NCBI GenBank assembly: GCA_963674945.2
Contig: CAXXWQ010000004.1
Span: forward strand, 1,504,001-1,568,000
Reading direction: 5' to 3'
Source: an uncultured Desulfosarcina sp.
GTDB lineage: Bacteria; Desulfobacterota; Desulfobacteria; Desulfobacterales; Desulfosarcinaceae
DNA length: 64,000 nucleotides
The stretch's first letter is position 1, and the number at the start of each line of letters is the position of its first letter. The translations under genes were made by a program, and so were the position numbers. The notes beneath the pieces were generated by a model. The model saw nothing but the letters and a program-made list of their open reading frames with translations. It was not told the origin of the DNA and searched no databases. Positions 1 to 5,247 of this stretch are shown in pieces.

Positions 1-3000
1 CCGGAAAGCCGGTAACTTCGGCCACCTGTTGTACCAGGAGCCGCTCCAGTTTCGCCCGGTCCACCGTCGACCGGCCCTTTTTTGTTTCAGCACTGCCCCG
101 CAGCCGCTGGGCGGCGTCGGCCAGCTCGCCCAAGGCGGCATTGGCCAACAACGTCGGATCGGGAAAAGAGATCCCGCACTGTTTTGCGAAACGGGTGATG
201 AGGTCACCGGCCTTGATGGAGTCCAGATTCAGATCATCCAGCAGCCGGACGTTCCGAGAGAGGCTGTCTGCCGGAAAACCGGTCACCGCCGAAACCAGAT
301 CCAGCAGGATGGCCTGGGCCGCCACCGGCTCGACCGCCGGTGTCGACGCCGCGCCGTCCACATCCTTCGGTCGTGCATCGGGATCCCAGAAAGAGAGATC
401 GGCCTTTACCACCTGCCGTAAAAACGCACCCCGGGAAGCAAGGTACCGGCTGACCAGTGCGTCCGGAACACCGGTGAAGGCTTCGGCCAGTACAGGATGA
501 ATCCCGCCCGGGATGATACCGGCTTCATCTTCCTTCTCCTTTTCGATGACGGGGATGTTTTCACATGGATTGACGACAAAAATCTTTTCACCGGCCGGCG
601 TAAAGGGCCGGATCAGCCTGTTTTCGAAGAAGGTCTCCCACCGGATGGACGTACCATGGGAAAACAAGGCACCCACCGCCCGGTTCAGATCCGAAAAACT
701 TCCGGCCGCGGTTTCCACCGGAAGGCATGGCGTTTTCCCATCGCCGCGGATATCCCGAACGAGACCCGTGAGAACACGCCCCGGGCCCACTTCGACGATC
801 ACATCACAAGCAGCGTGCATACTTCGCACCATGGCAATAAAATCGACCCGGGACCGGATCTGCCGGGAGAAATGATCTTTCAAGGAAAGGCCTGCCTCGA
901 GCCGGGAACCGTCGATACTGGTAAACAGCGTACAGACCGGCGCCGCCATGGATTCTGTCAGCATCTGAAAATCGGCCACCTGCCGTGCGGACTCTTCACA
1001 AAGGGGGCTGTGGAAGGCGGCGGAAACCGGAAGCGTTACGGCGCTGACGCCATTTTCCCGTGCCAGCCGCGCCATTTGTGCAACGGCCGACGATTCGCCG
1101 GAGAGTACGGTCTGATGGGGGCTGTTGCGGTTTGCCACGGTGACGGTCGAACCCGATTGGGCGACCAAGGCCAGTGCCGTGGATTCGTCGCATCGCAGAC
1201 TCACCATGCCACCCGGCGTCGTCACCGGTGCGGACATGACCTTCCCGCGGCGGGTGGAAAACTCCAGCAGCGTCGCTCCGTCCATAACGCCTGCAGCAAA
1301 ACAGGCGGTCAATTCTCCCAGGCTGTGGCCGCCCACGGCAACCGGTACGACCCCCAGACGGGTCAGATATTCGAACCACAGCATGGAGGTCAAACAAATG
1401 GCCGGCTGTGCATGTTCCGTAAGGGAAAGGGTACGGAACCAATGTTCCTGCTGTTCGGCATCCGATGCCCGGTCCATGTCACGATGGATCAAGGCGCCGA
1501 TGGAAACACCGATTTGTTCGCCGGTCACCCGATCGGCCGTTTTCATCCAGGAACGCGCCCACTCGAATCGCCGGACCAGGGCAAACGCCATGTTGATCCG
1601 CTGTGAGCCCTGACCGGGAAACAAAAATCCGATCCGGGGGGCCGTATTCCCCGATCCCAACCAGATGTCCGGACCCGGCGAAATCACCCTCTGGCCTTCC
1701 GCTTCCATTACGGATTTTTGCACTGCAGTTTTCAATTGGGCCAGACGGTCCGCCAGGTCATCGGGATGGCCGGCAACGACGGCCGCCCTGAGGTTCGACG
1801 AAGGATCTGCCTGTGGACATTGCCGGGCCGAAAGGTCGGCGAGTTCGGCGATACTCGAACCCTCTGCGTCTCGGATCAGTTTATCGATTTTTTCGATCAT
1901 GTTCGCCACATCGTCTGCACCGATGGCGAAAAGCTCATCCTCCTGGGCATGGGCCAGCAGTATCTCTTCTTCCAGGGCCGGTTGCAGTCGATTGTCCGGA
2001 GCGTCGCCGGAGACCAGGGTGATGTGACAATTGATCCCGCCGAACCCCATGGAAGAGACGCCTGCTTTCAATTGGGTATCGGTGGATTCGAGCCTTCCGA
2101 GGCGGACCGGATAGATCCTTCGGGCGGCGTTGTCGAATGCCTGGTGGGGATGGTTGCAGGCCGCGGTGGGGGGAACCACCCGTCGATTGACCGCCATGAC
2201 CGCCTTCATCAATCCACCGATTCCCGAAGCGGCCTTGGCATGGCCGATGATGGACTTCAGGGAGGTGATGCCGCAAGGCCGCAACAGGCCCTTGGGGACG
2301 GGGGTTCGTCCGGTCACCTGGGCGATGGCCTCCAGTTCCGTCCGGTCCCCAACGGTGGTCCCGGTGCCGTGCCCCTCGATAAAATCCAGCTCGTGGATCC
2401 CGTACGGAGCATGATGATATGCCCGTTCCAGGGCCAGGGCCTGACCGGCACTGCGGGGCGCCGTGATGCCGGTACCGGCGCCGTCCGACGAGATACCCCA
2501 CCCATGAATCACCGCATAGACGCGGTTTCCTTCTTTTCTTGCCGCATCCAGGGGCTTGAGCACCATGAATCCGCATCCCTCACCGGGTATGAAGCCCTTA
2601 CCCCCCCGGTCGTACACGTTCATATCCCCGTCGGTGAGTGCCCCGGTCTTGGCAAATCCCACCATTTCAAAGGGGTCGAGGCTGATGTCAACGCCTCCCA
2701 CCAGGGCCAGGTCCAGGTCGCCGTCGGCAAGACGCGAGGCGGCATGGGCCACCGCCAGAAGGGAGGAGGAACAGGCGCCGTCAACCGTGAATCCCCCCCC
2801 CATTAAATTGAGATGGTTGCATATTCGTCCTGCGATGGTATTGGACAAACCACCGGCCAACGTGTCTTCGTCAACCTTGGGAAAGACCGCGGTGTAGCGC
2901 TCCTTAAGCAATCGCGTGAGACCTCGAAGCTGGGTTTCATCCATGCCCTGGGCACGGGCGGCGCTGAAAAGCGCCCGCCGGACAAAAGGCCAGCGCAGCC

Positions 3001-3418
3001 GCATGGTGTTGGACCGGGTCTGCTCCCCCGTAAGGGTGTTGCCGACGATGACGCCGGTCCGCTGTCCGGGCAGGGTGTCCCGGGTATATCCGGCATCGGA
3101 AACGGCCGCAAGACTGGTCTCCAATGCCAACCAATGAACGACATCCGTGGTTTTCATGGTTGACTCGGGAATGCGACGCCCGGACCAGTCGAAGACAAAA
3201 CCGTCGATGACCGCGGCTTGACGCCCATAGGTCTTATCTGCGGTCTTTCGATCCGGATCGTAATAATCCGCCATGGAAAGCCGGCATTGGGGGAATTGTC
3301 GAAACTGCCGTCTTTTCGCCAGAACATTTTCCCACAGCAGGCGGGGCGTGGATGCATCCGGATATTGACATGCCAATCCGATCACAGCGATCGCCGCAGA
3401 CGAAGGCCGATGGTTCAT
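1..3418 (-). CDS. Iterative type I polyketide synthase, PksE (enediyne PKS)/PfaA-like; 5' part only (KS-AT-ACP-ACP...)
   Basis: Manual translation from ATG 3418 (GAGG RBS), open to the window edge: MNHRPSSAAIAVIGLACQYPDA. KS motifs GNTLTGEQTRSNTMRLRWPFVRR, DEDTLAGGLSNTIAGRICNHLNLMGGGFTVDGACSSSLL (Cys codon 2771-2773), EGHGTGT, KSIIGHAKAA. AT motifs FPGQGSQ, GHSLGE, AAFHS. ACP motif LLDDLNLDSIK (Ser 218-220). A second ACP begins at the edge (QVAEVTGFP). Confidence 0.93.
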   Translation of the reverse strand, partial: MNHRPSSAAIAVIGLACQYPDASTPRLLWENVLAKRRQFRQFPQCRLSMADYYDPDRKTADKTYGRQAAVIDGFVFDWSGRRIPESTMKTTDVVHWLALETSLAAVSDAGYTRDTLPGQRTGVIVGNTLTGEQTRSNTMRLRWPFVRRALFSAARAQGMDETQLRGLTRLLKERYTAVFPKVDEDTLAGGLSNTIAGRICNHLNLMGGGFTVDGACSSSLLAVAHAASRLADGDLDLALVGGVDISLDPFEMVGFAKTGALTDGDMNVYDRGGKGFIPGEGCGFMVLKPLDAARKEGNRVYAVIHGWGISSDGAGTGITAPRSAGQALALERAYHHAPYGIHELDFIEGHGTGTTVGDRTELEAIAQVTGRTPVPKGLLRPCGITSLKSIIGHAKAASGIGGLMKAVMAVNRRVVPPTAACNHPHQAFDNAARRIYPVRLGRLESTDTQLKAGVSSMGFGGINCHITLVSGDAPDNRLQPALEEEILLAHAQEDELFAIGADDVANMIEKIDKLIRDAEGSSIAELADLSARQCPQADPSSNLRAAVVAGHPDDLADRLAQLKTAVQKSVMEAEGQRVISPGPDIWLGSGNTAPRIGFLFPGQGSQRINMAFALVRRFEWARSWMKTADRVTGEQIGVSIGALIHRDMDRASDAEQQEHWFRTLSLTEHAQPAICLTSMLWFEYLTRLGVVPVAVGGHSLGELTACFAAGVMDGATLLEFSTRRGKVMSAPVTTPGGMVSLRCDESTALALVAQSGSTVTVANRNSPHQTVLSGESSAVAQMARLARENGVSAVTLPVSAAFHSPLCEESARQVADFQMLTESMAAPVCTLFTSIDGSRLEAGLSLKDHFSRQIRSRVDFIAMVRSMHAACDVIVEVGPGRVLTGLVRDIRGDGKTPCLPVETAAGSFSDLNRAVGALFSHGTSIRWETFFENRLIRPFTPAGEKIFVVNPCENIPVIEKEKEDEAGIIPGGIHPVLAEAFTGVPDALVSRYLASRGAFLRQVVKADLSFWDPDARPKDVDGAASTPAVEPVAAQAILLDLVSAVTGFPADSLSRNVRLLDDLNLDSIKAGDLITRFAKQCGISFPDPTLLANAALGELADAAQRLRGSAETKKGRSTVDRAKLERLLVQQVAEVTGFP

Positions 3419-3645: not shown

Positions 3646-5247
3646 ATGACAACAAAGCTGAGAACCTGTGTTTCTCCGGCGGGTCGTTTTATCTTCGGGA
3701 TCCACCGGCCGACATTCACCTCGGATAATTTCCGCTTTGAAAGTTCACTTACCGACCTGGGTCTAATGCCCGATGGCACCCCATACCGCAACCGGGCCAA
3801 TTTTCCCGAAGGCCCGGTACAAGAACCATCGGCGGACTGGATATTCGAAGTTCCCAACGCCTTTCCCTTCCGGGGCACGACCTACATCGGGAAAACCTGG
3901 GCCGATTCTCGTGCCAAAAGTCCCGAACATATCCGGTTGCCCGAGGCGCCGGAGATTTCTTTCTTTTCGGGTTTCGAAGATGAAGCCTCGGCCATGGGAG
4001 CGATCCAAAAGCTCCCCCGCCCCCTTCACCTGGCCCTGGCCGTCACCTCAACCGATCCGCGGGACCTGTGCTGTCTGGCCCATATGGCCTGCACATTTTT
4101 CATGGATGAGACCAGCGGCGCCCCATGGGGATTGGCCTATGAACGCCGAAACGACGGAAGGATGAAGGCCGTTATCACGGACGAAGCGCTGTTCGAGGCC
4201 GTGGCCAACAACCGCCACCTGCCCGGACCCTACAAGCAGGCCATGGTTCTTCGTCCCGGCGCCCAGGGGGAAAGCGAAATCGTCGGCGAATGGCAGGGTG
4301 AGAACACCCATGTGTTCGAGTATCTCAGGCGCAACTCCTACATCCCCTGGGGCCACTATGCAGCCAACATGGCAAACGACGCCGTGCGGTACCGGGTCCG
4401 GGACATCACCCTTTCGGACATGACCGGCATGCGCCATCTTTACTATCAGCGAAGCTATACCCGCATGGCGCGGCAGTTGGGAATCCATCTTGAACCCGAT
4501 GCCGGCCCCATCGATGCCAATGCCCTGGAACGCATCCGGCAGCGCATCCAAAACACTCCTTCCGCCCATGGGGACCTGCCCTTTGACAGGACCTTGTGGG
4601 GATGGAATTACGGATTCGATTTCGCTCCCAGCGGGTACCGCCTCCACGCCTCCCACCAGCAGATCCACCAGCAGTATGCGATGATTCCAAAAACCGTCCC
4701 GATAAACGGCGATACGGGTCGAATACCGGCATTTGCATGCGGTGACATGGTGGCCGAATTCATCAGTGAATTCCGCAAGCAGACGGGAAAAGGCTTTTTC
4801 GATTGCTATGAAAAGGCGATTGTTGAAAACCAGCGGATGGACGGGAACGATGAACGGGAGAAAAGCCTGGTGATTTTTGAGGACGAACGGGTCATGGTAT
4901 TCGTACCCAAGGCGCAGACATCCCAATGGGAGTTACAATTGATGCCCAAGCTTTCCGTGGGCAATATATTCGATTCGGACACTGCCATGCGCCACAGTCT
5001 GGACCGGGCCATATTGGTTGCCGTTCGGACACTGGCACAGATGGGGGCGAGGATGATCACCACCATCGAGTACGCCAAACCCATATTCGACGGAGATGAT
5101 GAGCAGCGGCTATTGATGGCATTTTTGCCGAAACTGCCCGAATCCCCCGGTGCCTTCAGCGAAGCCCAATTGCGCTGGATCAACGGCCACTATCCGGAAG
5201 ATTTCGCCCTCGCCTGCCGACGCAAACAGACCGAAACCGAGAAATGA
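3646..5247 (+). CDS. Conserved hypothetical protein with C-terminal GalT/HIT-like nucleotidyltransferase region
   Basis: Long ORF; ATG 3646 follows AAGGT (3628 is an alternative start). HASHQQIHQQY aligns with GalT GASxxHPHxQI, and VFVPKAQTSQWELQLMPK resembles the GalT C-terminal FVPxAxxxxFExxIxPK segment. Confidence 0.7.
   Translation: MTTKLRTCVSPAGRFIFGIHRPTFTSDNFRFESSLTDLGLMPDGTPYRNRANFPEGPVQEPSADWIFEVPNAFPFRGTTYIGKTWADSRAKSPEHIRLPEAPEISFFSGFEDEASAMGAIQKLPRPLHLALAVTSTDPRDLCCLAHMACTFFMDETSGAPWGLAYERRNDGRMKAVITDEALFEAVANNRHLPGPYKQAMVLRPGAQGESEIVGEWQGENTHVFEYLRRNSYIPWGHYAANMANDAVRYRVRDITLSDMTGMRHLYYQRSYTRMARQLGIHLEPDAGPIDANALERIRQRIQNTPSAHGDLPFDRTLWGWNYGFDFAPSGYRLHASHQQIHQQYAMIPKTVPINGDTGRIPAFACGDMVAEFISEFRKQTGKGFFDCYEKAIVENQRMDGNDEREKSLVIFEDERVMVFVPKAQTSQWELQLMPKLSVGNIFDSDTAMRHSLDRAILVAVRTLAQMGARMITTIEYAKPIFDGDDEQRLLMAFLPKLPESPGAFSEAQLRWINGHYPEDFALACRRKQTETEK

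What the first reader, a model, noticed from the sequence alone, without database searches (positions are those of the whole stretch)
1..3418. Enediyne-PKS (PksE)-like synthase with tandem ACPs in a probable anaerobic sulfate reducer, without the E3/E4/E5 cassette upstream
Seen: the KS contains GNTLTGExxRxNxMRLRWPxVRR and DEDTLAGGLSNTIAGRICNH, and the post-AT linker has RPF...NPCE. I recognise these from actinobacterial PksE rather than ordinary PfaA. Also seen: at least two consecutive ACPs. Established: canonical PksE has one ACP and clusters with E3/E4/E5 and the E10 thioesterase. Here the upstream neighbour is a divergent GalT-like gene. Inference: a PksE/PfaA-intermediate lineage making an unknown polyene or specialised lipid. 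The gene is missing from the ORF track because it runs off the window.
Basis: partly seen in the sequence, partly recalled or inferred. Interest (0 to 1): 0.8.

Follow-up and report, generated by a model that had tools for sequence, protein, structure and literature searches.

The report
One-gene polyene synthase in sulfate reducer
This gene of a sulfate-reducing bacterium encodes one giant enzyme with the parts of the two-protein Rhodococcus polyene synthase joined in a single chain; it is a cousin of the enzymes that start enediyne antibiotics, but no enediyne partner genes were found in the genome, so it likely makes and releases a simple conjugated polyene, and most members of its genus keep it.

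Summary
The window shows the first 1139 of 2692 residues. The whole enzyme is KS-AT-ACP-ACP-(Ser-less ACP)-KR-DH-PPTase-hotdog-hotdog, colinear with SgcE. The last two domains resemble the E10 thioesterase, so E10 is built in. No E3/E4 family match was found in this genome or in 18 order-mates carrying the same tail (positive control rang). It is not PfaA and not a PksE/PfaA intermediate: grouping with PfaA-like KSs is rejected (AU p 1e-6), and the genome's real pfaA lies elsewhere. The closest characterised system is RerA/RerB of Rhodococcus erythropolis (PMC11563203), which makes polyenes of 6-9 double bonds. This gene is its natural one-chain form, so the likely product is a released linear polyene. 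Added here: RerB's 'unknown domain Y' is a second hot-dog, giving a predicted FatA-like double fold. It is the most conserved domain within this clade (93% vs KS 86%), but not family-wide. The gene occurs in 25 of 30 other genomes of the genus, with no conserved tailoring neighbours. The GalT-like neighbour is not a partner. Enediyne-like KSs in Deltaproteobacteria are in print, and this scan noted the family in other genomes.

The parts
1..3418 (-). 5' part (residues 1-1139) of a 2692-aa iterative type I PKS; the whole gene is G000:C4:1499340-1507418. Left of the window, in C4 coordinates: rest of ACP2 (1503825-1504052, Ser1157); third ACP-like repeat without the Ser (1503564-1503785, Pro1243); KR (1502079-1502816, Tyr1693); DH (1501149-1502036, His1824/Asp2008), no ER found; PPTase-like domain (1500489-1501031, Asp2209-Ala2211-Glu2255); first hot-dog = RerB 'domain Y' (1499934-1500380); second hot-dog, E10-type thioesterase (1499379-1499816, Arg2569 = RerB Arg415)
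   Evidence: ORF; Pfam; colinear with SgcE incl. PPTase; E10/CalE7/DynE7 hits; model and fold; residues kept: KR/DH 98 of 98, PPTase Asp 87 and Glu 92 of 98, TE Arg 95 of 98; Ser absent from the third ACP in 9 of 9 orthologs, dN/dS 0.25; RerB by eye; coordinates
2009..3394 (-). KS domain, PKSE-type; Cys216-His350-His393 intact
   Evidence: Pfam PF00109/PF02801; 53% identical to SgcE KS; residues conserved in 98 of 98 full-length homologs
719..1633 (-). AT domain; Ser699 (GHSLG) and His803 (AFHS; malonyl-type motif, assignment recalled)
   Evidence: PF00698; 98 of 98
560..610 (-). Post-AT linker motif RPF...NPCE; SgcE has a related motif at the same place
   Evidence: alignment to SgcE
104..316 (-). 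ACP1, Ser1067 (window 218-220)
   Evidence: PF00550 at residues 1038-1102
2..52 (-). Start of ACP2 (continues left of the window; Ser1157)
3646..5247 (+). Divergent neighbour, 533-aa protein of unknown function with weak HIT/GalT likeness; syntenic landmark, not part of the pathway

Best explanation
The gene encodes a single-chain iterative polyketide synthase of the RerA/RerB type that likely primes its own carrier domains, likely builds a fully conjugated chain from malonyl-CoA, and likely releases it as a linear polyene rather than an enediyne or a polyunsaturated fatty acid. Steps: (1) the in-cis PPTase would load phosphopantetheine on Ser1067 and Ser1157 (inferred; two stand-alone PPTases in the genome could do it instead); (2) AT would load malonyl, and KS-KR-DH would repeat condensation, reduction and dehydration with no ER, leaving one double bond per cycle (domains and catalytic residues shown, chemistry inferred from SgcE and RerA); (3) the C-terminal hot-dog with Arg2569 would hydrolyse the chain, followed by decarboxylation and dehydration to a polyene of about 6-9 double bonds (inferred from RerB and PKSE/TE); (4) the first hot-dog (domain Y) is predicted to pack against it as a double hot-dog and would help set which chain is released (inferred). 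No tailoring gene travels with it in this genus, so the released polyene is probably at or near the end product. The most likely role, weakly held (about 35%), is a membrane-associated radical or oxygen quencher; a signal is next (about 25%).
For: Colinear with SgcE from KS to PPTase: 42% over the N-terminal 965 columns, 28% over the C-terminal 1186. Tail matches SgcE10, CalE7 and DynE7. Domain order equals RerA (KS-AT-ACP-ACP-KR-DH) plus RerB (PPTase-Y-TE), with the same motifs by eye in every domain; KS Cys is residue 216 in both, and RerB Arg415 maps to Arg2569. RerA/RerB and an artificial RerAB fusion made polyenes with 6-9 double bonds in E. coli, and TE inactivation left orange, possibly enzyme-bound material. 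PKSE plus TE alone give pentadecaheptaene. All 8 KS/AT/KR/DH catalytic positions are kept in 98 of 98 full-length homologs. All domains are under purifying selection among 9 syntenic orthologs, dN/dS 0.04-0.38. The Y-TE model has pLDDT 84, pTM 0.83, and matches acyl-ACP thioesterases at Z 21-22, rmsd about 3.5, about 246 aligned. The middle residue of the PPTase triad is reported as non-essential, and Ala occurs naturally. Relatives sit beside enzymes of families that act on polyenes: CrtI/CrtISO-like flavoproteins directly downstream in 5 of 80 loci and fused in L110, and a carotenoid oxygenase plus halogenases in Gloeothece.
Against: No product or expression was measured. RerA/RerB were compared by eye only, with no computed identity and no place in the tree. 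RerB has Glu at the middle PPTase position and was inactivated only as a double mutant; here it is Ala, and the PPTase is the least conserved domain. Only 16 of the 25 same-genus hits have an open frame of 2540 aa or more; 9 are shorter, and I did not separate contig ends, assembly errors and real breaks. Three well-assembled same-genus genomes (G803, G804, G694) have no trace of the gene within 10 kb upstream of the neighbour, so it is dispensable. The native product of rerAB itself is unknown, and long free polyenes are unstable, so unlinked enzymes may convert it. The CrtI-like neighbours score below their family cut-offs. The strong conservation of Y holds in 2 of 5 groups tested, not family-wide.
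Confidence: 0.75

Rival explanations
1. The synthase makes a polyenoyl chain that is not released as a hydrocarbon. It is handed on or reduced by unlinked enzymes into a specialised lipid or signal, with domain Y acting as the transfer or recognition step.
For: Y is the most constrained domain within the window's clade (92.6% identity, interval 89-95, vs KS 86.1, TE 81.9; same dS) and within the second-copy clade (84.8 vs KS 78.8), but differs between clades. CrtI-like enzymes are adjacent or fused in 6 of 80 loci. In the other clades sensor genes often sit directly upstream: 21 of 59 loci L059-L117 (domain calls on like neighbours).
Against: No acyltransferase, reductase or transporter is conserved next to the gene in the window's clade. 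The only CrtI-like gene found in G000 is unlinked and 23-26% identical. The TE Arg needed for release in RerB is kept.
Confidence: 0.15
2. It starts an enediyne pathway whose other genes lie elsewhere in the genome or are too diverged to detect.
For: PKSE-type KS and E10-type TE. Family members in other phyla keep cassette-type genes: DUF1702 directly downstream in L091, UnbV/CRTAC1 genes in L117. Singh et al. 2023 suggested Deltaproteobacteria as a source of enediynes.
Against: PF08012 (E2/E3) and PF07593 (E4) match 0 of 19 genomes with this tail, while the C-1027 plasmid control rings. tblastn with C-1027 E2, E3, E4 and E5 finds nothing in G000 at E 0.01 or better (genome 98.7% complete). 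The minimal cassette is defined as PKSE, TE and three further genes.
Confidence: 0.03
3. It is a PfaA-like polyunsaturated fatty acid or long-chain lipid synthase that works with pfaBC and pfaD in trans.
For: Tandem ACPs; its best NCBIfam hit is the PfaA model; the genome has pfaD and pfaBC.
Against: It scores 572 bits against a cut-off of 1010, close to SgcE's 456, whereas the genome's true PfaA scores 1614 and sits next to pfaD. AU test rejects grouping with PfaA-like KSs. It has PPTase and TE domains in cis, which the PfaA layout lacks.
Confidence: 0.02
4. The copy in this window is a decaying, non-functional gene, redundant with the second copy on contig C3.
For: One ACP has lost its Ser, the PPTase has Ala at the middle position, a broken group II intron lies just downstream, and 9 of 25 same-genus hits have short frames.
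Against: Intact 2692-aa frame, all catalytic residues present. The Ser-less ACP and the Ala are shared with orthologs. dN/dS is well below 1 in every domain among orthologs; with the window's copy included dN stays far below dS.
Confidence: 0.04

Closest known systems
RerA/RerB iterative polyene synthase of Rhodococcus erythropolis PR4 (Prasongpholchai et al. 2024, PMC11563203; this strain's cluster is listed as 'type Q' in Shulse and Allen 2011, PMC3098273)
   Same: Same domain set and order (KS-AT-ACP-ACP-KR-DH, then PPTase-Y-TE), matching motifs in each domain by eye, KS Cys216, TE Arg kept; no cassette-type genes in its listed neighbours.
   Different: One natural 2692-aa chain instead of two proteins; an extra Ser-less ACP; PPTase Asp-x-Ala instead of Asp-x-Glu; host is a sulfate reducer and the gene is in most genomes of its genus.
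Enediyne PKSE with its discrete thioesterase (SgcE/SgcE10 tested here; CalE7 and DynE7 by PDB sequence)
   Same: Colinear KS-AT-ACP-KR-DH-PPTase, KS 53% identical, same KS motifs, E10-type hot-dog.
   Different: Three ACP repeats, fused double hot-dog, no E3/E4/E5. The cassette-type actinobacterial KSs form their own clade (100/100); whether it is sister to or nested in the Y-TE family is unresolved.
Enediyne-like KSs of non-actinobacteria: marine-sediment Deltaproteobacteria and anaerobes (Singh et al. 2023, PMC10308959); PksE-like PKS with three halogenases in Microcystis (PMC2442094)
   Same: Same kind of KS in the same kind of host has been reported.
   Different: The passages I saw treat them as possible enediyne sources and do not describe the fused tail, the lack of the cassette, or genus-wide retention.
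PfaA of PUFA synthases
   Same: KS-AT-tandem ACP-KR-DH order.
   Different: KS about 35% identical, below the family cut-off, separate clade, no pfaBCD nearby.
Double hot-dog acyl-ACP thioesterases (FatA and bacterial relatives)
   Same: Predicted fold of the Y-TE unit, Z 21-22. That their N-terminal hot-dog shapes chain specificity is recalled, not from a call.
   Different: 7-14% identity; the sequence is E10-like, so this is a fold likeness only.

Membership tests
RerA/RerB-type polyene iPKS | KS-AT-tandem ACP-KR-DH without ER | tested here: met
RerA/RerB-type polyene iPKS | PPTase-Y-TE unit after DH | tested here: met
   by-eye comparison with RerB in the supplement
RerA/RerB-type polyene iPKS | Catalytic residues named in the paper (KS Cys216, two ACP Ser, PPTase Asp48/Glu50, TE Arg415) | tested here: inconclusive
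   Cys216, Ser1067, Ser1157, Asp2209 and Arg2569 kept; the Glu50 position is Ala2211, a position reported as non-essential in other PPTases
RerA/RerB-type polyene iPKS | KS groups with RerA in a tree | not tested
   no hit listed or 65 was named as RerA or RerB, so no stored sequence was available
RerA/RerB-type polyene iPKS | Makes conjugated polyenes | not testable with these tools
   needs expression
Enediyne pathway (minimal PKSE cassette) | PKSE-type iterative PKS with in-cis PPTase | tested here: met
Enediyne pathway (minimal PKSE cassette) | E10-type thioesterase | tested here: met
   present but fused and doubled; no stand-alone E10 hit in G000
Enediyne pathway (minimal PKSE cassette) | E3 (DUF1702) and E4 (UnbV/CRTAC1) genes | tested here: not met
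   0 of 19 genomes, control plasmid positive; tblastn empty
Enediyne pathway (minimal PKSE cassette) | E5 gene | tested here: inconclusive
   not found with the single C-1027 query in G000; no profile search was run
PfaA / PUFA synthase | Score above the TIGR02813 cut-off | tested here: not met
   572 vs 1010 bits; the genome's own PfaA 1614
PfaA / PUFA synthase | KS groups with PfaA-like KSs | tested here: not met
   p-AU 1.4e-6; references were the genome's PfaA and four plasmid-borne PfaA-like KSs, not Shewanella PfaA or a named HglE
PfaA / PUFA synthase | pfaB/C/D adjacent | tested here: not met
   downstream are a broken group II intron and purine salvage genes

The most novel reading that the evidence does not exclude
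A conjugated polyene is a near-core membrane or signal molecule of this genus of sulfate reducers, made by one self-sufficient enzyme whose domain Y is a clade-specific gauge that fixes the product. The widespread PPTase-Y-TE family is the pool from which the enediyne PKSE/E10 pair arose by loss of Y and gain of E3/E4/E5, with loci such as L091 and L117 as half-way states.
Probability: 0.22. Interest if true: 0.7.

Novelty: new variant of a known kind. Interest (0 to 1): 0.42.

Why it matters
It corrects a likely misreading: enediyne-type KSs from marine-sediment Deltaproteobacteria have been proposed as a new source of enediynes (PMC10308959), but this one and 18 order-mates lack the E3/E4 families and look like plain polyene synthases. 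It gives a fold to RerB's unknown domain Y and a testable role for it. Cultured Desulfosarcina strains carry the gene (L047, L052, L053), so the native product and role of a RerAB-type enzyme, still unknown in Rhodococcus, can be tested there. A natural one-chain polyene synthase could also be a convenient biocatalyst. The chemistry class itself is known, which caps the interest.

Tried and rejected
PfaA identity and a PksE/PfaA intermediate: rejected. Adjacent or unlinked enediyne cassette: not found; searches had no ringing control, so they were repeated with the C-1027 plasmid. GalT-like neighbour as partner: rejected, since it is in 161 of 400 order genomes against 18 of 400 for the Y-TE tail, and elsewhere it is not beside the PKS. 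'Sister to PKSE' as a firm claim: dropped; quick trees gave it, the careful tree nested PKSE inside the family, and the AU test did not decide (p 0.405). Trees: 2 of 52 KS segments were too short; searches used 26 of those 50, leaving out three long branches (L017, L097, L118) and 21 further rows to save time. Seven of the 120 proteins (30-34% identity, other PKS types) were dropped before domain counts; residue counts use the 98 homologs of 2390 aa or more. 'Y is the most conserved domain' as a family-wide claim: rejected, it holds in 2 of 5 groups. Expression: no RNA holder listed. Promoter scan of the intergenic region: nothing. A full-length multiple alignment timed out and was replaced by pairwise mapping. 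Complex prediction of a Y-TE dimer was not available, so whether two chains rebuild the E10 tetramer is open. Papers PMC4753101, PMC5579567 and PMC2708871 were not held, so E10/CalE7 catalytic residue numbers were not checked in print. Earlier-findings look-ups by sequence and by place gave nothing.
Full report
What is there. The finding covers the first 1139 codons of a minus-strand gene that runs off the window. In the laid genome it is C4:1499340-1507418, 2692 aa. Pfam gives KS, AT, ACP, KR and DH, and a weak thioesterase-like hit at the end. Against SgcE from the C-1027 plasmid it is colinear from KS through the C-terminal PPTase, with an insert of extra ACP repeats (42% and 28% over the two halves). 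The last 346 residues go beyond SgcE. The final domain hits SgcE10, CalE7 and DynE7 in the PDB, and the one before it is also similar to SgcE10 (pairwise E 4e-9). The layout is KS-AT-ACP-ACP-(ACP without Ser)-KR-DH-PPTase-hotdog-hotdog. Of the 99 proteins of 2390 aa or more kept (this one included), 98 end in both hot-dogs and one ends after the first.

All three are present as quoted. The two KS motifs separate PKSE-type from PfaA-like KSs cleanly (7 of 7 against 0 of 7). The host has dsrA. Its nearest named relatives, 75-86% identical in the tail, are Desulfosarcina where a genus is named, so that genus is inferred.

Not PfaA, not an intermediate. The protein scores 572 bits on the PfaA model (cut-off 1010; SgcE scores 456), while a separate gene beside pfaD on contig C3 scores 1614. 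A pfaBC-like gene followed by oleBCD-like genes lies elsewhere on C4. In a careful KS tree of 26 rows the window's KS and the PKSEs stand together at 100/100 against the PfaA/ArsA-like rows. Forcing it into the PfaA-like group costs 130 log-likelihood units (p-AU 1.4e-6). The references did not include Shewanella PfaA or a named HglE. Whether cassette-type PKSEs are sister to the double-hot-dog family or nested in it is unresolved: quick trees gave sister, the careful tree gave nested, and the AU test gave p 0.405.

Not an enediyne pathway. In the C-1027 cluster the genes before the PKS are two DUF1702 proteins, a CRTAC1/UnbV protein and an RnfD-like protein; my labels E2-E5 for them rest on position and recall. 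PF08012 and PF07593 match 0 of 19 genomes carrying the tail and ring on the control plasmid. tblastn with all four proteins finds nothing in this 98.7% complete genome. E5 was tested with one query only. That E3/E4/E5 make the alkynes is recalled; one search returned only a listing. PMC9992847 (passages read) defines the minimal cassette and shows that PKSE plus TE alone give pentadecaheptaene.

Closest characterised system. PMC11563203 (whole main text; supplement parts 1, 2 and 5 of 5 plus a term search; figures not seen) describes RerA (KS-AT-ACP-ACP-KR-DH) and RerB (PPTase, 'unknown domain Y', TE). Together, or as an artificial fusion, they made polyenes with 6-9 double bonds and ACP-bound chains up to C22. 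By eye their printed sequences share motifs with this protein in every domain. KS Cys216 has the same number, RerB Arg415 maps to Arg2569, Asp48 to Asp2209, and Glu50 to Ala2211. No identity was computed and RerA is not in the tree. PMC4103896 (passages) reports the middle residue of the PPTase triad as non-essential; the first and third are kept here and in 87 and 92 of 98 homologs. The genome also has two stand-alone PPTases.

Domain Y. An AlphaFold2 model of Y-TE from a 17-row alignment (pLDDT 84, pTM 0.83) shows two hot-dog units. It matches double hot-dog acyl-ACP thioesterases (Foldseek E about 1e-12; Z 21-22, rmsd about 3.5, about 246 aligned). Among 13 syntenic orthologs including this one, Y is the most conserved domain: 92.6% (89-95) against KS 86.1% (84-88) and TE 81.9%, at similar dS (dN/dS 0.043 among 9 of them). 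The same order holds in the clade of the second copy (84.8 vs 78.8, intervals overlapping). It does not hold in three other groups (71 vs 80, 66 vs 72, 38 vs 61). Pairwise values are not independent. Tight within clades and divergent between them suits a specificity element, which is inference.

Distribution and context. The tail occurs in 18 of 400 other genomes of the order and 1 of 400 of the phylum. The KS occurs in 25 of 30 other genomes of the genus, head-to-head with the same neighbour in 24 of 25. Of the 25, 16 have a full-length open frame and 9 are shorter for reasons not resolved. G803, G804 and G694 lack it cleanly at that site. The neighbour is in 161 of 400 order genomes, so it is a landmark only. 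Downstream, 15 of the 21 window-clade loci show a convergent gene of the adenine deaminase cluster; here a broken group II intron lies between. No tailoring gene is conserved in this clade. This genome has a second copy (C3:140868-148700, 63% in KS, one intact ACP) behind a hybrid sensor kinase. Among 59 loci outside the window's clade, 21 have a hybrid kinase or a protein-kinase/AAA/GAF gene directly upstream; many others are cut by contig ends. The family reaches Cyanobacteria, Planctomycetota, Pseudomonadota, Bacillota, Omnitrophota and Actinomycetota. The 511 stretches were not all examined and may include ordinary E10 genes; only the best 80 were read.

How it likely works. Self-priming, repeated KS-KR-DH cycles without ER, and release by the Arg2569 hot-dog to give a linear polyene, with Y shaping the released chain. 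Domains, residues, selection and missing partners are shown. The chemistry is inferred from RerAB and PKSE/TE. The cellular role is a guess: quencher about 35%, signal about 25%.

Novelty. Enediyne-like KSs in Deltaproteobacteria and anaerobes are in print (PMC10308959, passages and a supplement search), as is a PksE-like gene with halogenases in Microcystis (PMC2442094, passages) and the listing of R. erythropolis PR4 as type Q (PMC3098273, passages). The listings of eight full-text searches of the open library showed no paper on the natural one-chain form, on the fold of Y, or on this gene in Desulfosarcina. Subscription papers, three papers not held and unseen figures could bear on that. 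This scan's earlier notes describe the same family in other genomes (10 findings in at least 10 genomes, 8 shown); I had reached the RerA/RerB reading before that look-up. Verdict: a new variant of a known kind, interest 0.42.

Noticed in passing
L110:2828-12478: A 3217-aa family member has a CrtI/CrtISO-like FAD oxidoreductase fused in frame after the thioesterase. Related genes sit directly downstream in L059, L088, L101, L102 and L111, across three phyla. This points to enzymatic reduction or isomerisation of the polyene.
   Followed up: partly
L091:946-12094: A cyanobacterial member (split in two genes) is followed directly by a DUF1702 (E2/E3-type) gene and two halogenase-like genes, a partial enediyne cassette on a double-hot-dog PKS.
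   Followed up: partly
L117:11032-17590: A gammaproteobacterial member is followed by three related FG-GAP/UnbV (E4-type) genes; two were confirmed by Pfam.
   Followed up: partly
L012:14986-31042: Gloeothece verrucosa plasmid: same enzyme split after AT, followed by three halogenases and a carotenoid oxygenase.
   Followed up: partly
L013:5868-15884 (G000:C3:140868-150884): Second copy in this genome (2606 aa) behind a co-oriented hybrid histidine kinase whose N-terminal 280 residues have no Pfam match; the same pairing recurs in 10 of the loci.
   Followed up: partly
window 3646-5247: 533-aa protein found in 161 of 400 order genomes at 45-70% identity in the listed matches, with no Pfam, NCBIfam or PDB match and only weak HIT/GalT likeness. 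A conserved unknown in its own right.
   Followed up: partly
L001:9519-10671 (G000:C4:1497519-1498671): Group II intron remnant (RF00029 match, reverse transcriptase in two pieces) between the PKS stop and the adenine deaminase gene; absent at this site in relatives; higher read depth suggests a multi-copy element.
   Followed up: partly
L016:4777-13380 and L017:4758-15689: The genome's pfa genes are split: pfaD-pfaA on C3, and pfaBC followed by oleB/C/D-like genes on C4; probably a polyunsaturated hydrocarbon pathway.
   Followed up: no
L118:12001-13359: A Sinorhizobium meliloti pSymA PKS has a KS 45% identical to this one, on a long branch on the PKSE side but without the PKSE motifs.
   Followed up: no
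L099, L106, L107, L113: Members from Methylococcales and Oligoflexus sit beside a LolA-like gene, in three of them also ABC ATPase and MacB/FtsX genes, suggesting export of a lipophilic product.
   Followed up: no
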